Positions 1-10,277 of a DNA stretch of 10,277 nucleotides are shown here, in pieces. The position numbers were made by a program, and so were the translations under genes. Every line of letters begins with the position of its first letter. The stretch's first letter is position 1. The notes beneath the pieces are model-generated. The model worked only from the letters and a program-made list of their open reading frames with translations. It did not search any database and was not told the DNA's origin. Origin of the DNA: a virus; the UHGV virus genome UHGV-0252651. One strand, written 5' to 3'.

Positions 1-1226
<1,226 letters not shown>

Positions 1227-1227
<1 letters not shown>

Positions 1228-1466
1228 TGGAAGGTTTAATTGAAGCTATTAAATCAAACGACCTCGTAGCCGCTCGTAAATTATTTGCTGAAGCCATGGC
1301 TGCAAGAACGACTGATTTAATTAAAGAAGAAAAAATCGCTATCGCTCGTAATTTCTTAATCGAAGGTGAAGAACCTGATGACGAGGATGATGACGAAGAC
1401 GAAGATAGTGATGATAAAGACGACAAAAAAGACAAAGACTCTGACGAAGACGAGGATGATGAATAA
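1227..1466 (+). CDS. 67: Prohead core protein gp67 (79 aa) with a strongly acidic D/E-rich C-terminal tail
   Basis: ORF of 79 aa in the T4 position between 20 and 68. Start overlaps the gene 20 stop (TAATG). C-terminus is [32 protein letters not shown]. Identity from synteny and recalled T4 gene order. Confidence 0.85.
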
Positions 1467-1891
1467 TGCTTCTGATCCCTGAAACTCATGAATTAGTTCT
1501 CGAGAATGTCGAAGCACTTATTCCTGAAGCACAGGGTCGCTTTGACGAATTGTCTTCTGCTTTAAATAAAGACGATATAAATACAATTGTCGAGAATATG
1601 CTTGATGATGAAACTGATTTAGCGGTTGCATTAGCTTCTATTAATGAAGATATGCCGCTAAATGAATTCATCGTTAAACATGTTTCTGCTCGTGGTGAAA
1701 TTACACGTACCAAAGACCGCAAAACGCGTGAACGTAATGCATTTCAAACCACCGGGCTGTCTAAAGCAAAACGTAGACAAATTGCTCGCAAAGCTACCAA
1801 AACGAAGATTGCCAATCCAGCAGGTCAATCTCGTGCTCAGCGTAAGCGTAAAAAAGCTCTTAAACGCCGTAAAGCATTAGGATTAAGCTAA
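1466..1891 (+). CDS. 68: Prohead core protein gp68 (141 aa), basic Lys/Arg-rich C-terminus
   Basis: ORF coupled by TAATG overlaps at both ends (1464-1468 and 1889-1893). Size and position match T4 gene 68. Confidence 0.85.
1576..1583 (+). promoter_or_regulatory. Possible internal late promoter motif within gene 68
   Basis: Exact TATAAATA (GATATAAATACAATT) inside gene 68, about 300 bp upstream of gene 21. May be a chance occurrence in AT-rich DNA. Confidence 0.2.
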
Positions 1892-2529
1892 TGAATGAAC
1901 CCCAATTACTAATTGAAACTTGGGGTCAACCTGGCGAAATTATTGATGGCGTGCCAATGCTTGAATCTCATGATGGAAAAGACCTAGGTTTAAAACCCGG
2001 TTTATACATCGAAGGAATATTCATGCAAGCGGAAGTCGTCAATAGAAATAAACGTCTTTATCCAAAACGCATATTAGAAAAAGCGGTAAAAGACTATATC
2101 AATGAGCAAGTTTTAACTAAACAAGCTCTCGGAGAATTAAATCATCCTCCACGCGCTAATGTTGACCCGATGCAAGCCGCTATCATTATAGAAGATATGT
2201 GGTGGAAAGGAAATGACGTATACGGACGAGCTCGTGTTATTGAAGGTGACCATGGTCCTGGAGATAAATTAGCAGCTAATATTCGTGCCGGATGGATTCC
2301 AGGAGTTTCTTCTCGTGGATTAGGTTCATTGACTGACACAAATAAAGGTTATCGTATCGTAAACGAAGGATTCAAATTAACTGTAGGTGTTGATGCAGTA
2401 TGGGGTCCAAGTGCTCCAGATGCATGGGTAACTCCTAAGGAAATTACCGAATCACAGACGGCGGAAGCCGATACAAGTGCCGATGACGCCTATATGGCTC
2501 TCGCAGAGGCCATGAAAAAAGCGTTATAA
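1891..2529 (+). CDS. 21: Prohead core scaffold protein and protease gp21 (212 aa)
   Basis: 212-aa ORF directly upstream of the scaffold and major capsid genes. Length and position match T4 gp21. AGGA Shine-Dalgarno lies in the end of gene 68. Confidence 0.9.
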   Translation: MNEPQLLIETWGQPGEIIDGVPMLESHDGKDLGLKPGLYIEGIFMQAEVVNRNKRLYPKRILEKAVKDYINEQVLTKQALGELNHPPRANVDPMQAAIIIEDMWWKGNDVYGRARVIEGDHGPGDKLAANIRAGWIPGVSSRGLGSLTDTNKGYRIVNEGFKLTVGVDAVWGPSAPDAWVTPKEITESQTAEADTSADDAYMALAEAMKKAL

Positions 2530-2532
2530 ATA
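2525..2532 (+). promoter_or_regulatory. T4-type late promoter TATAAATA for gene 22
   Basis: Exact TATAAATA overlapping the gene 21 stop, 28 bp upstream of the gene 22 ATG. Confidence 0.6.
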
Positions 2533-2559
2533 TTATTATCTAAACAACAGGACTACAAA

Positions 2560-3369
2560 ATGCTTAAAGAACAACTGATTGCTGAAGCGCAAAAAATTGA
2601 TGCTTCCGTTGCTCTTGATAGTATTTTCGAATCAGTTAATATTTCTCCGGAAGCAAAAGAAACTTTCGGCACTGTATTCGAAGCTACCGTCAAGCAGCAC
2701 GCCGTTAAATTAGCTGAATCTCATATCGCTAAAATTGCTGAAAAAGCAGAAGAAGAAGTAGAAAAAAATAAAGAAGAAGCCGAAGAAAAAGCTGAGAAGA
2801 AAATCGCTGAGCAAGCTTCTAAATTCATCGACCATCTTGCGAAAGAATGGCTCGCTGAAAATAAATTAGCAGTTGATAAAGGCATCAAAGCCGAACTGTT
2901 TGAATCCATGCTTGGTGGATTAAAAGAGCTCTTTGTTGAACACAACGTTGTTGTTCCAGAAGAATCAGTTGATGTTGTAGCTGAAATGGAAGAAGAGCTG
3001 CAAGAACATAAAGAAGAATCAGCTCGTCTGTTCGAAGAACTCAATAAGCGTGACGCATATATCAATTATGTGCAGCGTGAAGTGGCATTGAGCGAAAGTA
3101 CTAAAGATCTGACTGAGTCTCAAAAAGAAAAAGTCTCTGCTCTGGTCGAAGGTATGGATTATTCAGATGCATTCTCAAGTAAATTGAGTGCCATCGTAGA
3201 AATGGTGAAGAAGTCTAATAAAGATGAAAGCACTATTACTGAGGGTATAAATACTCCTGATACTGAAGCAGCCGGACTGAATTTCGTCACTGAAGCTGTA
3301 GAAGATAAAGCTGCACCTGGTGCAGAAGATATTGTAAGTGTATATGCGAAAGTCGCATCTCGTTTCTAA
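2560..3369 (+). CDS. 22: Prohead scaffolding core protein gp22 (269 aa), acidic Glu/Lys-rich
   Basis: 269-aa ORF with an EEEVEKNKEEAEEKAEKK charged segment, located between 21 and 23 as in T4. AGGA RBS upstream; a TATAAATA motif sits 28 bp upstream of the ATG. Confidence 0.9.
   Translation: MLKEQLIAEAQKIDASVALDSIFESVNISPEAKETFGTVFEATVKQHAVKLAESHIAKIAEKAEEEVEKNKEEAEEKAEKKIAEQASKFIDHLAKEWLAENKLAVDKGIKAELFESMLGGLKELFVEHNVVVPEESVDVVAEMEEELQEHKEESARLFEELNKRDAYINYVQREVALSESTKDLTESQKEKVSALVEGMDYSDAFSSKLSAIVEMVKKSNKDESTITEGINTPDTEAAGLNFVTEAVEDKAAPGAEDIVSVYAKVASRF
3246..3253 (+). promoter_or_regulatory. Candidate late promoter TATAAATA inside the 3' end of gene 22, upstream of gene 23
   Basis: Exact TATAAATA (context GGGTATAAATACTCC) about 135 bp upstream of the gene 23 ATG. 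No motif is closer to 23. Confidence 0.5.
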
Positions 3370-3387
3370 TTTTAAAGGTTAACACAA

Positions 3388-4953
3388 ATGACTATCAAAA
3401 CTAAAGCTGAACTTTTGAACAAATGGAAGCCATTACTGGAAGGTGAAGGTTTACCGGAAATTGCTAATAGCAAACAAGCGATTATCGCTAAAATCTTTGA
3501 AAACCAGGAAAAAGATTTCCAGACAGCTCCAGAGTACAAAGACGAAAAAATCGCTCAGGCGTTCGGTTCTTTCTTAACAGAAGCTGAAATCGGTGGTGAC
3601 CACGGTTACAACGCTACTAACATTGCTGCTGGTCAGACTTCTGGCGCAGTAACTCAGATTGGCCCAGCTGTTATGGGTATGGTACGTCGTGCTATTCCTA
3701 ACCTGATTGCTTTCGATATTTGTGGTGTTCAGCCGATGAACAGCCCGACTGGTCAGGTATTCGCACTGCGCGCAGTATATGGTAAAGACCCAATCGCTGC
3801 TGATGCTAAAGAAGCATTCCACCCAATGTATGGTCCAGATGCAATGTTCTCTGGTCAGGGTGCTGCTAAGAAATTCCCAGCTCTGGCTGCTAGCACACAA
3901 ACCAAAGTAGGTGATATCTATACTCACTTCTTCCAGGAAACTGGTACTGTATATCTGCAAGCTTCTGCTCAAGTAACAATTAGTTCTACTGCAGATGATG
4001 CAGCTAAATTAGATGCTGAAATTAAGAAACAAATGGAAGCTGGCGCATTGGTAGAAATCGCTGAAGGTATGGCTACTTCTATCGCTGAACTTCAGGAAGG
4101 TTTCAACGGTTCTACCGATAACCCATGGAATGAAATGGGCTTCCGTATCGATAAACAAGTTATCGAAGCTAAATCTCGTCAGCTGAAAGCTGCTTACTCT
4201 ATCGAATTAGCACAAGACCTCCGCGCTGTTCACGGTATGGATGCTGATGCTGAACTGTCTGGTATTCTGGCTACCGAAATCATGTTGGAAATCAACCGTG
4301 AAGTTGTTGATTGGATTAACTACTCAGCTCAGGTTGGTAAATCTGGTATGACCCTGACTCCGGGTTCTAAAGCTGGTGTATTTGACTTCCAGGATCCGAT
4401 TGATATTCGTGGTGCTCGCTGGGCGGGTGAATCCTTTAAAGCTCTGTTGTTCCAGATTGACAAAGAAGCAGTTGAAATTGCTCGTCAGACCGGTCGTGGT
4501 GAAGGTAACTTCATTATCGCTTCCCGTAACGTAGTTAACGTTCTGGCTTCAGTTGATACTGGCATTTCTTATGCTGCACAGGGTCTGGCTACCGGCTTTA
4601 ACACTGATACTACCAAGTCAGTATTTGCTGGTGTTCTGGGTGGTAAATACCGTGTATATATCGACCAGTATGCTAAACAGGATTATTTCACTGTAGGTTA
4701 TAAAGGTCCGAACGAAATGGATGCTGGTATTTACTACGCTCCATATGTAGCTCTGACTCCGCTGCGTGGTTCCGATCCGAAGAACTTCCAACCGGTAATG
4801 GGATTCAAAACTCGTTACGGTATCGGTATCAACCCATTTGCAGAATCCGCTGCTCAGGCTCCGGCTTCTCGCATCCAGAGCGGTATGCCTTCTATTCTGA
4901 ATAGCCTTGGTAAAAACGCTTACTTCCGCCGTGTATATGTTAAAGGTATCTAA
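3388..4953 (+). CDS. 23: Major capsid protein gp23 precursor (521 aa)
   Basis: 521-aa ORF whose translation (MTIKTKAELLNKWKPLLEGEGLPEIANSKQAII...RRVYVKGI) matches my recollection of T4 gp23. Codon usage is noticeably more E. coli-like than neighbouring genes; followed by a strong hairpin terminator. Confidence 0.97.
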   Translation: MTIKTKAELLNKWKPLLEGEGLPEIANSKQAIIAKIFENQEKDFQTAPEYKDEKIAQAFGSFLTEAEIGGDHGYNATNIAAGQTSGAVTQIGPAVMGMVRRAIPNLIAFDICGVQPMNSPTGQVFALRAVYGKDPIAADAKEAFHPMYGPDAMFSGQGAAKKFPALAASTQTKVGDIYTHFFQETGTVYLQASAQVTISSTADDAAKLDAEIKKQMEAGALVEIAEGMATSIAELQEGFNGSTDNPWNEMGFRIDKQVIEAKSRQLKAAYSIELAQDLRAVHGMDADAELSGILATEIMLEINREVVDWINYSAQVGKSGMTLTPGSKAGVFDFQDPIDIRGARWAGESFKALLFQIDKEAVEIARQTGRGEGNFIIASRNVVNVLASVDTGISYAAQGLATGFNTDTTKSVFAGVLGGKYRVYIDQYAKQDYFTVGYKGPNEMDAGIYYAPYVALTPLRGSDPKNFQPVMGFKTRYGIGINPFAESAAQAPASRIQSGMPSILNSLGKNAYFRRVYVKGI

Positions 4954-4966
4954 TCTTTGACGATTT

Positions 4967-4997
4967 AAGGGACCTTCGGGTCCCTTTAGTTGTTTTT
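4967..4997 (+). terminator. Intrinsic terminator after gene 23: 8-bp stem with UUCG tetraloop and T-tract
   Basis: AAGGGACC-TTCG-GGTCCCTT at 4967-4986, a perfect inverted repeat, followed by TAGTTGTTTTT. Confidence 0.85.
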
Positions 4998-5001
4998 ATG
5001 G

Positions 5002-5009
5002 TATAAATA
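5002..5009 (+). promoter_or_regulatory. T4-type late promoter TATAAATA for gene 24
   Basis: Exact TATAAATA just after the gene 23 terminator T-tract and 27 bp upstream of the gene 24 ATG. Confidence 0.65.
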
Positions 5010-5036
5010 AATCATATAAACCAAAAGGAAAGCGCA

Positions 5037-6320
5037 ATGGCTAAAATCAACGAACTTCTGCGCGAATCAACCACAACGAATAGCAACTCAATCGGTCGCC
5101 CAAATCTCGTTGCTTTGACTCGCGCTACCACTAAATTAATATATTCTGACATTGTAGCAACGCAAAGAACTAATCAACCTGTTGCTGCTTTTTATGGTAT
5201 CAAATACCTTAACCCAGATAACGAATTTACATTTAAAACTGGTGCTACTTACGCCGGCGAAGCTGGGTATGTAGACCGAGAACAAATCACAGAATTAACA
5301 GAAGAGTCTAAATTAACTCTCAATAAAGGCGATTTATTCAAATATAATAATATCGTTTATAAAGTATTAGAAGATACACCATTTGCTGATATTGAAGAAA
5401 GCGATTTAGAATTAGCTCTTCAGATTGCAATTGTTCTTTTAAAGGTTCGTCTATTTTCTGATGCTGCAGTAACAAGCAAATTTGAAAGCTCTGATAGTGA
5501 AATTGCGGATGCTAGATTCCAGATTAATAAATGGCAAACCGCAGTTAAATCTCGTAAACTTAAAACTGGCATCACAGTCGAATTAGCACAAGATTTAGAA
5601 GCAAATGGATTCGATGCTCCTAATTTCTTGGAAGATTTGCTTGCAACTGAAATGGCGGATGAAATCAATAAAGATATTCTACAGTCTTTGATTACAGTAT
5701 CAAAACGCTATAAAGTTACAGGAATTACTGATACTGGATTCATTGATTTGAGTTATGCATCTGCACCTGAAGCTGGTCGTTCATTATACCGAATGGTGTG
5801 TGAAATGGTTTCACATATTCAGAAAGAATCAACTTATACAGCAACGTTCTGTGTTGCTTCAGCTCGTGCCGCTGCGATTCTTGCTGCATCAGGTTGGTTA
5901 AAACATAAACCAGAAGATGACAAATATCTTTCACAAAATGCCTACGGGTTCTTAGCTAATGGTTTACCGCTTTATTGCGATACCAACAGTCCATTAGATT
6001 ATGTAATCGTTGGCGTAGTAGAAAATATTGGTGAAAAAGAAATTGTTGGATCAATTTTCTATGCTCCGTATACAGAAGGTCTTGACTTAGATGACCCTGA
6101 ACATGTAGGTGCATTTAAAGTTGTAGTTGATCCAGAAAGTTTGCAGCCATCTATCGGTTTATTAGTTAGATATGCTTTATCTGCAAATCCTTACACTGTA
6201 GCAAAAGATGAAAAAGAAGCAAGAGTAATTGATGGTGGAGACATGGATAAAATGGCGGGTCGTTCAGATTTGTCTGTTTTATTAGGTGTTAAGTTACCAA
6301 AAATTATCATTGATGAATAA
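5037..6320 (+). CDS. 24: Capsid vertex protein gp24 (427 aa), paralogue of gp23
   Basis: 427-aa ORF with AAGGA RBS and TATAAATA 27 bp upstream. Shares the AQDL motif context with gp23 (compare ELAQDLRAV in gp23 and ELAQDLEAN here). Position matches T4 gene 24. Confidence 0.94.
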   Translation: MAKINELLRESTTTNSNSIGRPNLVALTRATTKLIYSDIVATQRTNQPVAAFYGIKYLNPDNEFTFKTGATYAGEAGYVDREQITELTEESKLTLNKGDLFKYNNIVYKVLEDTPFADIEESDLELALQIAIVLLKVRLFSDAAVTSKFESSDSEIADARFQINKWQTAVKSRKLKTGITVELAQDLEANGFDAPNFLEDLLATEMADEINKDILQSLITVSKRYKVTGITDTGFIDLSYASAPEAGRSLYRMVCEMVSHIQKESTYTATFCVASARAAAILAASGWLKHKPEDDKYLSQNAYGFLANGLPLYCDTNSPLDYVIVGVVENIGEKEIVGSIFYAPYTEGLDLDDPEHVGAFKVVVDPESLQPSIGLLVRYALSANPYTVAKDEKEARVIDGGDMDKMAGRSDLSVLLGVKLPKIIIDE

Positions 6321-6323
6321 AAC

Positions 6324-6350
6324 AAAGGGACCGAAAGGTCCCTTTTTATT
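6324..6350. terminator. Bidirectional intrinsic terminator between convergent genes 24 (+) and rnlB (-): stem with GAAA tetraloop
   Basis: AGGGACC-GAAA-GGTCCCT at 6326-6343 followed by TTTTT on the + strand and flanked by an A-run upstream (a T-run on the - strand). It lies in the 29-bp gap between the two stop codons. Confidence 0.85.
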
Positions 6351-7354
6351 TAACTTACCAATTCAATCCAAGCCGGACGAAGTACATCTTGTACCATTTT
6401 AACTAATTCCTTCTTAATCAAAGAAGGATTATCCGCTTGAGTTAGAGTAATACCTTCACGAGAAGTTTCTTCCAAAATATCTTGAACCGTTAGTCCCATC
6501 ACCTTTCCAAAATCTTTTGGACCGATTTCGCCAATTTTAGAAATAACGTTATTTACTCGGTTCAGTGTAACGTAACAAGCTAAAATTCCAACCAATTTGT
6601 TATCAGCTTCTGACAGTTCAACTTTAGCTTTAATAGGCTTATCAGACTTTTTCTTTTCACTAAATTTAGAGTTCTTGCATTTGATAGCTACGCGATTGCC
6701 ATTAGGCATCCAAGAAGGATAACAAGGTTTCAATACATATCCTTCAGCGGTAAATACTTCGCCTTTTACTTCAGCATTCCAAACGCATTTATTCGCATCA
6801 ACTAATCCAGCATGGTCTACTGTAAAATTATAATCTTGGACGACAGAATCTAAATCATTTGGCAATTTAATAAGCTCTTCAAATTTACCGCGACCTAAAA
6901 GTGGAGCCATTTTAAATTTAAATGTATTACAGAATGATTCCATCATATAATCATCGACATAAGTCACATCACCACTTTCTGTAGTAACAATAATGTCAAA
7001 TACATAAAAATCTTTATCGCCATAATCGACATTCTTCTGAATGCCAGGTCCGGCAAATTCACCGAAGACTTGATAAGATACAACCGCTGAAGTTTCCATA
7101 ATATCTTGTACTGCTTTAATGGAATCAGCGTAATTCTTCAAAATAATTTCATACCCAAAGAAATCTTCAGCAGGAAGAATAGGACCAGTTCGTTTAGCAC
7201 AAGTTACTTTATCACGCTCAATAATCAATGAGAAATTTGTGCCATGAATCTTTTCACGAGCTACCCATTCGCCACCAGTCAATCCTAAACTATAAAGTTT
7301 TTCAATGAATTTAGAATTGTAATGATTTTCAAGACTGCTATACTTTTTAAACAT
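6350..7354 (-). CDS. rnlB: RNA ligase 2 (Rnl2, 334 aa), nucleotidyltransferase superfamily
   Basis: 334-aa ORF on the - strand with the adenylyltransferase motif I KIHGTN (lysine at residue 35). Translation matches recalled T4 Rnl2. GAGGA RBS upstream. Confidence 0.94.
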
Positions 7355-7363
7355 AATTAATCC

Positions 7364-7642
7364 TCAAAATGTAATTTCTAACCAATCACCATCACGCTGA
7401 TCACTATTGACTTTAAAGCTAAATCCTTCTTTTCTCAGCCAATCACCAATTTCTTCAGTAATCAATTTATCGCGAGCAGTACAATAATAACTAAAATATG
7501 TTTTACCTTGTTCAGCTGCTTTATTAGCAAGTTCCGAAAAATCTTTAATAAAACACTCTAACTTAAACTGTTTACTTTTAAGTGCTTTTTCACGTAATTG
7601 ATTAGCAAAAGATTCATTTTCATAAAGATCATACTGTTCCAT
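7364..7642 (-). CDS. 24.2: Hypothetical protein 24.2 (92 aa)
   Basis: Small ORF packed between 24.3 and rnlB on the same strand, with AAGGTG RBS and only a few bp to its neighbours. No recognisable motif. Name assigned from T4 synteny. Confidence 0.7.
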   Translation of the reverse strand: MEQYDLYENESFANQLREKALKSKQFKLECFIKDFSELANKAAEQGKTYFSYYCTARDKLITEEIGDWLRKEGFSFKVNSDQRDGDWLEITF

Positions 7643-7645
7643 TTT

Positions 7646-7843
7646 TCACCTTTTATTAATATGTCTTTTTCTATAGACAACTTTTTCTCGAGTTTCAAAT
7701 TTATTCTTAGCAGTCATAGCTCGAGCCCATAATACAGCCACTTCTTTCGCCTGTAAGTTTAATTCACGAGCAATTTCAATGAATGACTTTCCAGACTCAT
7801 GAAGAGTAAACACCACAACCTCAGTTCGCATAATCAATCTCAT
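7646..7843 (-). CDS. 24.3: Hypothetical protein 24.3 (65 aa), predicted helix-turn-helix DNA-binding protein
   Basis: Small ORF first in the 24.3-24.2-rnlB unit. The segment HESGKSFIEIARELNLQAKEVAVLW has the pattern of an HTH (compare the N-terminal HTH of IS3-family OrfA proteins). Name from synteny. Confidence 0.65.
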   Translation of the reverse strand: MRLIMRTEVVVFTLHESGKSFIEIARELNLQAKEVAVLWARAMTAKNKFETREKVVYRKRHINKR

Positions 7844-7900
7844 GTTATCGAGTTGATGCCATTATATACATCATTTTCTGAGTGTGTTTTGTGTGCTTTC

Positions 7901-7927
7901 AAAATGAAGAAAGGGGCCAAAGCCCCT
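7901..7927 (-). terminator. Hairpin downstream of hoc on the - strand, separating hoc from the 24.3-24.2-rnlB unit
   Basis: AGGGGC-CAAA-GCCCCT at 7912-7927, a perfect 6-bp GC-rich stem. On the - strand it is followed by TTCTTCATTTT. Confidence 0.65.
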
Positions 7928-7932
7928 TATGA

Positions 7933-9063
7933 TTATGGATAGGTATAGATGATACCAGTTTCTAAAGCAGTTTTATGAATGATGTATCCATTACGTGACT
8001 CTTGAACATCAACTTCTGGATAGTCTTTCATCATCTTCTGAAGAGTGTAACGATGCAGGTAGTATTTGCTATCTGGATCTTCAGTTTTCCAATCTTTACC
8101 TTCTTCGGTCATTTTTTGGATTTCATCCATAACCCACCAACCGCACCAGATATAAGCTGAAGTACGATGTGGAAGAGGATGAACATAAGGCAATTCACCT
8201 TCTGGTTCCGGAGCAACTTTATCAGTTACCTGAACTTGGCCTGTTGCTTTAACTGTTTTACTATCATAGTCGGTTGCTGTAACGACAGCAGTAACTTCAA
8301 TAGTTTGACTTCCAATAGATGAGGTGTCAACGGTGTATACGTTAGTTGACCCTTCTACAGGAGAAGAATCTTTCTTCCATGAATAAGTAATTTGTGCTGC
8401 TTCAGGTGCTCCAGTAACATTAGCCGTAAATGTAGCCGAAGCATCTTGCTGAACGTTAATAGAAGGAGGAGTCAATGTAACCTGTGGATTCATTGTCTTC
8501 TTATTAACTGTCAATGATACTTCATTAGAAGTAACTTCCTTTTCATTGTAATTTTCAGCCGTTACTTGGGCTACACACTTAATTTTTTTAACTCCGCTTG
8601 TGTCAGGAGTGTAATTGAATGTAGCGTCAGTTGCTTCGTCTACAGGAGAACCGTCAACGTGCCATTGATACGTAGCGTTTGCACCTGATGGCTGTGAAGC
8701 TAAGGCAGCGGTAAATTCAATTGGAGTTCCAATCACTCCAGCATCAGGGCTACCAGGAGTTACAGCTAAAGTAGTTGTTTGTGTCTTATTTTGAACTGTG
8801 ATAGTTGTCGTAGTTTCTGCTGTTTCAGGTTCAGATTCTGCAACTTGATTGGTTGCAACTACTTTAATAGTCTTTTGACCGGCAGGTCCTTTTAGTACAT
8901 AACTAAAAGTTGCTGACGTTTCTTCCTGTGGAGCGTCGTCTACAGTCCAAGCATATGTAATAGGTCCATCTCCAGTTTGACCACTGGGTGTAGCAGTAAA
9001 CTGCTGAGTCTGATCTATAACTCCAGTAGGTGTTTTAGGAGTTATATCAACTGTAAAAGTCAT
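7933..9063 (-). CDS. hoc: Highly immunogenic outer capsid protein Hoc (376 aa), tandem Ig-like domains
   Basis: 376-aa ORF rich in Thr/Ser/Val with a recurring Ig-like repeat signature (ITYAWTVDDAP / ATYQWHVDGSPV / ITYSWKKDSSPV) and a distinct C-terminal region (YVHPLPHRTSAYIWCGWW...). AAGGA RBS; tetraloop terminator downstream. Confidence 0.9.
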   Translation of the reverse strand: MTFTVDITPKTPTGVIDQTQQFTATPSGQTGDGPITYAWTVDDAPQEETSATFSYVLKGPAGQKTIKVVATNQVAESEPETAETTTTITVQNKTQTTTLAVTPGSPDAGVIGTPIEFTAALASQPSGANATYQWHVDGSPVDEATDATFNYTPDTSGVKKIKCVAQVTAENYNEKEVTSNEVSLTVNKKTMNPQVTLTPPSINVQQDASATFTANVTGAPEAAQITYSWKKDSSPVEGSTNVYTVDTSSIGSQTIEVTAVVTATDYDSKTVKATGQVQVTDKVAPEPEGELPYVHPLPHRTSAYIWCGWWVMDEIQKMTEEGKDWKTEDPDSKYYLHRYTLQKMMKDYPEVDVQESRNGYIIHKTALETGIIYTYP

Positions 9064-9072
9064 AAGTTATCC

Positions 9073-9753
9073 TTATTTTAATGTTACGAAAGAAGAATTG
9101 CGTGTTTCACGAATTAGAACTGATCCGTCACGATTAATGTAATAAATTAAGCTAAACAAAGTTTGGTGTGCCGACGCGTGTTCAAAACTGGTTGGGCGAG
9201 ATTTCCAATCTGGAGTTTCAGCAATCCATTGATAAATCCACCAAGGAACAGTACAGAATCCTGGATTTTTTCCAATCAGCTGAAGATTCGGACTAAAGTT
9301 TTCCGGAAGAGTAAATACAGACGGCTTTTCAGATTCAATAATCTCAGTTACAGCCTGCTCGAATTTTTCTTCAACAAAAGGAGTATCTTCAATCAAAACA
9401 TCAGTATTTTCAGGAATTTTATCCATTTCTACTACTTCAATTTTAATGTCAGATTTAACCGGAGAATCAATCAGAAGTGCTGCCTCTGGATTGACTTCTT
9501 CATCGTCATATTTTAATCCATCTGCGGCATCAGCAGCATCGATTAAGTCTTTAATAGATAACCCATCAGTCTCTGGCATAGGTTCACTAGCGAGCTTCTG
9601 GAGGGCTTCTTCAATATCAACAACGATATTATCAAAAGATTTATTCTTTTTGACCTTTATACCAAACTGTTCAGCATATTCAGCTAATTTAGCTTTAGCT
9701 TCTTTATTATCATCAAGAGCCTTCAGCTCTGCAATATAATCTTTATCTATCAT
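9073..9753 (-). CDS. inh: Inh, inhibitor of the prohead protease gp21 (226 aa)
   Basis: 226-aa ORF immediately upstream of hoc on the same strand, with GAGGA RBS. Size and position match T4 inh (earlier called hoc.1). Confidence 0.82.
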   Translation of the reverse strand: MIDKDYIAELKALDDNKEAKAKLAEYAEQFGIKVKKNKSFDNIVVDIEEALQKLASEPMPETDGLSIKDLIDAADAADGLKYDDEEVNPEAALLIDSPVKSDIKIEVVEMDKIPENTDVLIEDTPFVEEKFEQAVTEIIESEKPSVFTLPENFSPNLQLIGKNPGFCTVPWWIYQWIAETPDWKSRPTSFEHASAHQTLFSLIYYINRDGSVLIRETRNSSFVTLK

Positions 9754-9766
9754 AATATTTCCTCAG

Positions 9767-9774
9767 TATAAATA
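9767..9774 (+). promoter_or_regulatory. T4-type late promoter TATAAATA for uvsW, in the divergent inh/uvsW intergenic region
   Basis: Exact TATAAATA 29 bp upstream of the uvsW ATG. Confidence 0.55.
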
Positions 9775-9803
9775 TAGATATATTTATTACATGGTATTTA
9801 GAC

Positions 9804-10262
9804 ATGACTGACATTAAAGTACATTTTTATGATTTTAGTCACGTGAGAATTGATTGTGAAGAAAGTACATTTCATGAACTCCGTGATTTCTTTAGCTTTG
9901 AAGCCGATGGGTATCGTTTTAATCCAAAGTACAAATATGGTCACTGGGATGGACGAATCCGTCTTTTAGATTATAATCGTCTTCTTCCATTCGGCTTAGT
10001 CGGGCAAATTAAAAAGTTCTGCGATAACTTTGGCTATAAAGCCTGGATTGACCCACAGATTAACGAAAAAGAAGAATTATCAAGAAAAGATTTTGATGAA
10101 TGGCTTTCTAAATTAGAAATCTATTCAGGAAATAAAAGAATTGAACCACACTGGTATCAAAAAGATGCAGTGTTCGAAGGATTAGTTAATCGTCGTAGAA
10201 TTCTTAATCTTCCAACATCCGCAGGTACAGTCGAAGACCACGGCACGAAAGAAATGCTTTAA
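9804..10262 (+). CDS. uvsW: UvsW SF2 helicase, N-terminal 141 residues followed by 11 unrelated codons and a stop; interrupted or truncated inside helicase motif I
   Basis: Translation MTDIKVHFYDFSHVRIDCEESTFHELRDFFSFEADGYRFNP...RRRILNLPTSAG matches the recalled T4 UvsW N-terminus up to the glycine loop of motif I. The expected Lys-Ser/Thr is replaced by TVEDHGTKEML and a stop at 10260-10262. Confidence 0.8.
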   Translation: MTDIKVHFYDFSHVRIDCEESTFHELRDFFSFEADGYRFNPKYKYGHWDGRIRLLDYNRLLPFGLVGQIKKFCDNFGYKAWIDPQINEKEELSRKDFDEWLSKLEIYSGNKRIEPHWYQKDAVFEGLVNRRRILNLPTSAGTVEDHGTKEML

Positions 10263-10277
10263 CTTTTTCATGTTTTT

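What the first reader, a model, noticed from the sequence alone, without database searches (positions are those of the whole stretch)
9754..9803. Compact 50-bp divergent inh/uvsW intergenic region: an empty segE site
In T4, as I recall, the GIY-YIG homing endonuclease gene segE sits between inh (hoc.1) and uvsW, and SegE cleaves the uvsW 5' region of phages lacking it. Here inh and uvsW are separated by only 50 bp containing a late promoter motif, so this genome carries the HEG-minus allele. Together with the apparent uvsW disruption about 450 bp downstream, this locus looks like an active arena of mobile-element turnover.
Basis: partly seen in the sequence, partly recalled or inferred. Interest (0 to 1): 0.45.

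Follow-up and report, generated by a model that had tools for sequence, protein, structure and literature searches.

The report
Ordinary unoccupied segE site; chimeric contig end
This T4-like phage lacks the selfish endonuclease gene segE between inh and uvsW, as about three quarters of sequenced relatives (including T2) do, and the apparent break in uvsW is a metagenome assembly artefact that joins phage DNA to gut-bacterial (Segatella-like) DNA.

Summary
T4 carries the 618-bp GIY-YIG gene segE at this junction (insertion point 9790|9791), so the window has the segE-minus allele.

This allele is the common state and probably the ancestral one. The junction is 100% identical to phage T2. It is contiguous in 447 of 607 matching phage records, against 159 records with segE. 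The sister genus Mosigvirus has the same 50-bp layout.

The first ~140 nt of uvsW differ from T4 at 37 positions, while the next 285 nt differ at 6. The T4-type block occurs in 158 records, almost the same number as carry segE (159). This fits a segE cassette that moves with a recoded target region.

The "uvsW disruption" is not biological. Window 1-10227 is 100.000% identical to a metagenome contig with an intact 503-aa uvsW. Bases 10229-10277 are 49/49 identical to three long metagenome contigs and 48/49 to Segatella hominis. This is a chimeric contig end, so the "arena of mobile-element turnover" reading is not supported.

Already known; low interest.

The parts
9073..9753 (-). inh (hoc.1), inhibitor of the gp21 prohead protease, 226 aa
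   Evidence: ORF, translation. The exact protein is found on 5 ENA contigs with Phage_Inh_N/C hits. It is annotated as inh in relatives and in T4.
9754..9803 (.). 50-bp divergent inh/uvsW intergenic spacer, the unoccupied segE site
   Evidence: The 130-bp query window 9714-9843 that contains it is 100% identical to T2 and many other phages and is contiguous in 447 of 607 matching records. Mosigvirus F31 and FL18 have the same 50-bp spacing.
9760..9764 (-). Shine-Dalgarno-like GAGGA for inh, 6 nt upstream of its ATG
   Evidence: Read directly from the sequence. Its function is inferred. It is conserved in T4 and Mosigvirus.
9767..9774 (+). T4 late-promoter consensus TATAAATA facing uvsW (facing segE in T4)
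   Evidence: 5 copies against 0.95 expected, all on the plus strand. Annotated as a promoter at this position in phage Lutter. The same sequence is present in T4 upstream of segE.
9781..9788 (-). Late-promoter-like AATAAATA on the minus strand, facing inh and hoc
   Evidence: Annotated as a promoter on the minus strand in Lutter NC_054924. T4 record X14869 annotates two putative leftward promoters in this spacer. It has one mismatch to the consensus, and its function is inferred.
9791..9803 (.). 13 nt that T4 replaces with 631 nt (12-nt leader, the 618-bp segE gene, and 1 more nt of the 2-nt segE-uvsW gap); the left insertion boundary is 9790|9791
   Evidence: Alignments. segE+ records match the junction query only up to window 9790 (query positions 1-77).
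9804..9942 (+). uvsW 5' block that differs sharply from the segE+ allele; inferred to contain or adjoin the SegE target and to form the co-conversion tract
   Evidence: 37 differences from T4 in 139 nt, against 6 in the next 285 nt and 1 in the last ~250 nt to the left of the insertion point. The T4-type block is found in 158 records at >=95% identity, against 159 records with segE. The window-type block is shared with Mosigvirus.
9804..10227 (+). Genuine uvsW 5' part (141 codons), ending inside the helicase motif I coding sequence (PTSAG)
   Evidence: UvsW_N at E = 6.7e-44. Matches to ~500 tequatroviruses end at 10227. 100% identical to L002, which continues into a 503-aa uvsW.
10228..10277 (.). 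Foreign tail of a chimeric contig end: one unmatched C, then 49 nt of Segatella-like DNA
   Evidence: No match in phages or E. coli. Bases 10229-10277 are 49/49 identical to metagenome contigs L008, L009 and L011, and 48/49 to Segatella hominis NZ_SGVY01000013.

Best explanation
Window 9754-9803 is the normal, unoccupied inh/uvsW junction of a T2-like Tequatrovirus. It is a 50-bp bidirectional late control region. It holds the inh ribosome-binding site, a consensus late promoter (TATAAATA) facing uvsW, and a near-consensus late promoter facing inh and hoc. T4 and about a quarter of related records carry the free-standing GIY-YIG homing endonuclease gene segE just right of these promoters (9790|9791), together with a recoded first ~140 nt of uvsW. 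The window has the segE-minus allele, which is probably the ancestral state. By inference, it would be cut by SegE in a mixed infection with a segE+ phage and converted by homologous repair. The uvsW truncation at the window's end is a metagenome chimera and is unrelated to this site.
For: Shown. The T4 layout inh / 49 bp / segE / 2 bp / uvsW is. The spacer is identical to T4 up to 9790 and diverges after that. segE is in 159 records and the contiguous empty junction in 447 of 607, including T2 at 100% identity. Mosigvirus has the same 50-bp spacer, and its sequence is identical to the window from ~9781 to 9848 apart from two bases at 9797 and 9800. There is a sharp divergence block at 9804-9942 relative to T4. 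The T4-type block and segE occur in nearly the same number of records, 158 against 159. Promoters are annotated at the same positions in Lutter and in the T4 record X14869. The tail is Segatella-like and uvsW is intact in the 100%-identical contig L002. From the literature: segE lies between hoc.1/inh and uvsW, SegE cuts that junction in segE-less RB30 and RB52, and homing is nearly 100% efficient (PMC2330249, PMC2988022).
Against: SegE sensitivity of this exact sequence was not tested. The RB30 and RB52 sequences and the mapped cleavage site (Kadyrov et al. 1997) were not available. The two reviews also place the site slightly differently, one in the intergenic region and the other in uvsW. 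Promoter function rests on motif, position and other people's annotation, with no transcript data. Database counts are of records (RefSeq and GenBank duplicates included), not of independent isolates.
Confidence: 0.9

Rival explanations
1. The compact junction is a secondary loss: an ancestor carried segE and it was later precisely deleted.
For: Homing endonuclease genes are known to cycle through gain, decay and loss (general knowledge). segE+ and segE- phages are otherwise 97-98% identical.
Against: The spacer has no segE remnant. The window-type spacer and uvsW 5' block are shared almost base for base with Mosigvirus, a different genus. The T4-type uvsW block is almost never found without segE: 158 records against 159. 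A deletion would be expected to leave T4-type flanks behind.
Confidence: 0.05
2. uvsW is truly interrupted at motif I (about 10227) by a mobile element such as an intron, intein or free-standing endonuclease gene.
For: The break falls in a highly conserved helicase motif, a typical target for such elements. Sibling contigs L005 and L006 break only 4 nt away.
Against: The 49-nt tail is 100% identical to the interior of three long metagenome contigs and 48/49 to a Segatella hominis genome. It matches nothing in 50,697 phage records. The frame hits a stop codon after 11 codons. No Rfam intron family matches. L005/L006 and L003/L004 join different foreign sequences. L003 is chimeric at both ends, with bacterial glmS-like DNA (identified by eye from its translation) at one end and GTPase-like DNA at the other. 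L002 has the identical phage with an intact uvsW.
Confidence: 0.02
3. The site is empty but immune: its sequence is not a SegE substrate, so no homing pressure acts on it.
For: No cleavage data exist for this exact sequence. T4's own site is reported to be cut less efficiently (recalled from the Kadyrov 1997 abstract, not verified here).
Against: By subtraction, about 315 of the records with a contiguous empty junction are >=99% identical to the window across it, so the tested segE-less phages RB30 and RB52 most likely share it. The differences from the segE+ allele cluster exactly where a protected target would be expected.
Confidence: 0.1

Closest known systems
Phage T2 inh/uvsW junction (LC348380, PV958097) and hundreds of other segE-less Tequatrovirus genomes
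   Same: 100% identity over window 9714-9843. Same 50-bp spacer, same promoters and same uvsW 5' block.
   Different: Nothing detectable at this locus. The window is simply another copy.
RB30 / RB52 hoc.1-uvsW region, the experimentally defined SegE homing site (Kadyrov et al. 1997, as cited in PMC2330249)
   Same: segE is absent between hoc.1 (inh) and uvsW, and the site is colinear with T4 flanks.
   Different: The RB30 and RB52 sequences and the mapped cut site were not available, so identity to the tested substrate is inferred.
T4 segE locus (NC_000866 112008-112816)
   Same: The inh 5' end and the first 37 bp of the spacer, including both late-promoter motifs, are identical. uvsW is 98% identical from codon ~47 onward.
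   Different: T4 has 631 nt (segE) in place of 13 nt. Its uvsW lacks one codon and differs at 37 of the first 139 nt.
Other free-standing T4 homing endonuclease systems (SegF/gene 56, SegG/gene 32, SegB/tRNA cluster, mobE/nrdB)
   Same: An intergenic endonuclease gene targets a neighbouring conserved gene in phages that lack it, and flanking markers are co-converted (PMC2988022).
   Different: Different endonuclease and target. Here only the recipient (empty) allele is present.
Mosigvirus (F31, FL18) inh/uvsW junction
   Same: Same 50-bp spacing. TATAAATA is conserved, and the sequence from ~9781 to 9848 is nearly identical.
   Different: About 10% divergence elsewhere. It belongs to a different genus.

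Membership tests
segE-minus (unoccupied) allele of the T-even inh/uvsW junction | inh and uvsW are adjacent and divergent, with no ORF between them | tested here: met
   50-bp spacer at 9754-9803.
segE-minus (unoccupied) allele of the T-even inh/uvsW junction | Colinear with the segE+ reference on both sides of a discrete insertion point | tested here: met
   Identical to T4 up to 9790. uvsW resumes at 9804 where T4 has 4678 in L001.
segE-minus (unoccupied) allele of the T-even inh/uvsW junction | No remnant of the GIY-YIG gene | tested here: met
   Only 13 nt lie between the boundary and the uvsW ATG. The T4 segE gene matches 159 records, and T4's SegE protein hits SegE_GIY-YIG in Pfam, but nothing in the window corresponds to either.
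SegE homing (recognition and cleavage) site | Sequence matches the published SegE recognition and cleavage site of RB30/RB52 | not testable with these tools
   Kadyrov et al. 1997 is not held. Reviews give only the location.
SegE homing (recognition and cleavage) site | Cleaved by SegE, and segE is preferentially inherited in mixed infection | not testable with these tools
   Needs an experiment.
T4 late promoter | TATAAATA octamer shortly upstream of a late gene, on the coding strand | tested here: met
   Located at 9767-9774, 29 nt before the uvsW ATG. The motif is enriched 5-fold in the window, always on the plus strand, and 4 of the 5 copies lie shortly upstream of a late-gene start. Annotated as a promoter in Lutter.
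T4 late promoter | gp55-dependent transcription start about 6 nt downstream | not testable with these tools
   No transcript data.
Mobile-element insertion in uvsW (intron, intein or endonuclease gene) | The insert is contiguous with phage DNA in independent genomes, or has the features of an intron, intein or endonuclease gene | tested here: not met
   The tail is Segatella-like DNA. It is absent from all phage records, has an in-frame stop and gives no Rfam hit. The identical phage has an intact uvsW in L002.

The most novel reading that the evidence does not exclude
Chimeric junctions in 100%-identical copies of this phage from different metagenome assemblies cluster in the uvsW 5' region: 10004 in L003/L004, 10223 in L005/L006 and 10227 in the window. 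The last two are only 4 nt apart, inside the motif I coding sequence, and are joined to different foreign DNA. This could mark a real double-strand-break hot spot in the phage DNA, for example cleavage by an uncharacterised site-specific nuclease in the gut, with the free ends captured during library ligation. The alternative is a coincidence of assembly.
Probability: 0.04. Interest if true: 0.4.

Novelty: already known. Interest (0 to 1): 0.08.

Why it matters
It matters little for biology. The locus is a textbook recipient allele of a homing endonuclease system described in 1997, and it is identical to the site in phage T2. The practical value is as a caution. The only unusual feature, the truncated uvsW, is an assembly chimera and must not be annotated as a pseudogene or a mobile-element insertion. 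The database-wide counts add a small quantitative note to what is known. segE is present in about 26% of matching records, and a recoded 140-nt uvsW 5' block is found in almost exactly the same number of records.

Tried and rejected
1. I tested the last 50 nt as an intron, intein or endonuclease-gene start. There is no Rfam hit, the frame has a stop, and there is no match in phages, E. coli or IMG/VR. Genome and metagenome scans then found the sequence in Segatella-like contigs, so this idea was rejected.

2. From the reverse translation MKKLKHFFRAVVFD I guessed that the tail encoded the N-terminus of a HAD hydrolase. The Segatella ORF continues differently and has no significant Pfam hit, so I dropped the guess.

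3. An exact-protein look-up of the truncated 152-aa UvsW found nothing on record.

4. I tried to obtain the SegE recognition sequence. Kadyrov et al. 1997 and Miller et al. 2003 are not held, and a second literature search added nothing.

5. A sigma-70 promoter and terminator scan of 9650-9900 gave nothing above chance.

6. I tested the foreign tail of L005/L006 against E. coli genomes and found no match.

7. The Pfam copy used here gave no hit for Inh. Its identity rests on precomputed hits and on annotation in relatives.

Full report
**What the window is.** The 10,277-bp window is a Tequatrovirus (T4-like) head-gene segment. It runs from part of gene 20 through 67, 68, 21, 22, 23 and 24 on the plus strand. 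On the minus strand it carries rnlB, 24.2, 24.3, hoc (7933-9063) and inh (9073-9753). The 5' part of uvsW starts at 9804 on the plus strand. Positions 1-10227 match about 500 phage records at 97-98% identity. The UvsW N-terminal domain is recognised at E = 6.7e-44.

**Checking the observation.**
- The inh start codon is at 9751-9753 and the uvsW ATG at 9804, so the spacer is exactly 9754-9803, 50 bp.
- The spacer contains TATAAATA, the T4 late-promoter consensus, at 9767-9774 on the plus strand.
- The octamer occurs 5 times in the window against 0.95 expected from shuffles, always on the plus strand. Four copies lie shortly upstream of late-gene starts (genes 22, 23, 24 and uvsW). The fifth, at 1576, is inside gene 68, about 300 bp upstream of gene 21.
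- The minus strand carries AATAAATA at 9781-9788. Phage Lutter's annotation marks both octamers as promoters. The old T4 record X14869 marks two putative leftward promoters in the same spacer.
- A GAGGA ribosome-binding site for inh sits at 9760-9764 on the minus strand.
- The sigma-70 and terminator scan gave nothing above chance.

**Comparison with T4.** In NC_000866 the order is inh, 49 bp, segE (618 bp, 205 aa, with SegE_GIY-YIG and GIY-YIG domains), 2 bp, uvsW. The window is identical to T4 from inside inh to 9790, a stretch that includes both promoter motifs. After that, 13 nt in the window stand where T4 has 631 nt. The literature places segE in the hoc.1 (inh)/uvsW interval. It states that SegE cuts that junction or the uvsW 5' end in the segE-less phages RB30 and RB52, with nearly 100% homing and co-conversion of flanking markers (PMC2330249; PMC2988022).

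**How common the empty site is.**
- T4 segE DNA matches 159 phage records.
- A 130-bp probe across the window's junction (9714-9843) matches 607 records. It is contiguous in 447 of them, including T2 at 100% identity. The other ~160 match only up to 9790, the segE boundary.
- The checked examples of these partial matches, T6 and Shfl2, have the T4 layout with segE.
- Mosigvirus phages F31 and FL18, from a sister genus, also have a 50-bp spacer. Their sequence is identical to the window from ~9781 to 9848 apart from two bases in the spacer.

The empty site is therefore the majority state (about 74% of matching records, duplicates included) and most likely the ancestral one.

**A recoded uvsW 5' block travels with segE.**
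- Against T4, the window has 37 differences (including a one-codon indel) in uvsW nt 1-139 (9804-9942).
- It has only 6 differences in the next 285 nt, and only 1 in the last ~250 nt to the left of the insertion point.
- The T4-type block is found at >=95% identity in 158 records, almost exactly the number with segE, 159.
- Only 2 of 607 records showed a second, separate match of the junction probe.
- The window-type block is the one shared with Mosigvirus.

The simplest reading is that segE moves as a cassette with a diverged target region, which is the co-conversion described in the literature. I infer that the SegE target lies in or next to 9791-9942. I could not map the published recognition sequence because the primary paper is not held.

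**The uvsW 'disruption' is a chimeric contig end.**
- All phage matches stop at 10227, inside the motif I coding sequence (PTSAG). The last 50 nt match no phage record, no E. coli genome and no IMG/VR contig.
- A 24-mer from the tail found Segatella hominis NZ_SGVY01000013 and four metagenome contigs.
- Bases 10229-10277 are 49/49 identical to the interior of contigs of 76.7, 112.9 and 45 kb, and 48/49 identical to S. hominis. Unrelated sequence lies on both sides in those contigs.
- Window 1-10227 is 100.000% identical to ENA contig L002, which continues into an intact 503-aa uvsW.
- Four other contigs carry the same 100%-identical phage joined to other foreign DNA. L003 and L004 break at 10004 into high-GC GTPase-like DNA (a weak Pfam hint). 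L005 and L006 break at 10223 into a different sequence. L003 is also chimeric at its other end, where it carries glmS-like DNA of about 57% GC, identified by eye from its translation. L005 has 39 unmatched nt at its other end.

The 152-aa truncated uvsW ORF is therefore an assembly or library artefact. It is not a pseudogene and not a mobile-element insertion.

**Explanation and rivals.** Best explanation (confidence 0.9): the spacer is the ordinary bidirectional late control region of the inh/uvsW junction in its unoccupied, segE-minus state, identical to T2. It is presumably a SegE substrate in mixed infections.
- *Secondary precise loss of segE (0.05).* Disfavoured by the outgroup, and by the near-absence of T4-type flanks without segE.
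- *A real insertion in uvsW (0.02).* Rejected by the Segatella identity and by L002.
- *An empty but SegE-resistant site (0.1).* Not excluded without the published site or an assay.

**Unexplained residue.** Two independent chimeric junctions lie 4 nt apart (10223 and 10227). With about five junctions on 10 kb, a rough estimate gives about a 1% chance that any pair falls this close if positions were uniform. The window and L002 also start at exactly the same base. This points to assembly-graph or coverage causes common to these samples. A real break hot spot is a remote possibility (about 4%).

**Verdict.** The empty segE site is real but is the common, already described state. The proposed mobile-element turnover rests on an artefact. 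Novelty: already known. Interest: low.

Noticed in passing
window 10228-10277: The last 50 nt are not phage DNA. Bases 10229-10277 are 49/49 identical to three long gut-type metagenome contigs and 48/49 to Segatella hominis. The window is therefore a chimeric metagenome contig, and the 152-aa uvsW ORF (9804-10262) is an artefact.
   Followed up: yes
window 4954-5036: The gene 23 / gene 24 spacer is only 83 bp. T4 has 812 bp there, holding the GIY-YIG gene segD on the minus strand. This phage therefore lacks both T4 endonuclease genes that fall within this 10-kb interval.
   Followed up: partly
L002-L006 (ENA metagenome contigs) against window 1-10227: Five contigs from other assemblies carry this phage at 100.000% identity over up to 10,227 nt. 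Four of them have foreign DNA at one or both ends. The window and L002 begin at exactly the same base in gene 20. Identical phage DNA in several samples, with many chimeras, hints at a shared cohort, re-assemblies of the same reads, or cross-contamination.
   Followed up: partly
window 10004, 10223 and 10227 (junctions in L003/L004, L005/L006 and the window): Chimeric breakpoints cluster in the uvsW 5' region. Two are only 4 nt apart but join different foreign sequences. The cause is undetermined: a coverage gap, a graph branch or a real break site.
   Followed up: partly
window 9804-9848 against Mosigvirus L014 590-634: The first 45 nt of uvsW are identical between two genera, synonymous sites included, while the next ~115 nt differ at about 20% of positions. 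This may reflect a constraint on translation initiation, or the conserved sequence that SegE exploits as its target.
   Followed up: no
window 9446-9739 (+): A 97-aa ORF antisense to inh corresponds to 'ORF 2 (AA 1-97)' annotated in the old T4 record X14869. It is probably not a gene.
   Followed up: no
L007 6677-7937 (Segatella hominis): The Segatella DNA that donated the tail lies at the start of a 103-aa ORF next to a 314-aa ORF. Neither has a significant Pfam hit. The same segment sits in a contig named with coverage ~261 (L008) in one metagenome. Its nature is unknown.
   Followed up: partly
window 7646-7843 (-): The 24.3 homologue is 65 aa here, against 56 aa annotated in T4. This is a minor difference in length or start site.
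   Followed up: no
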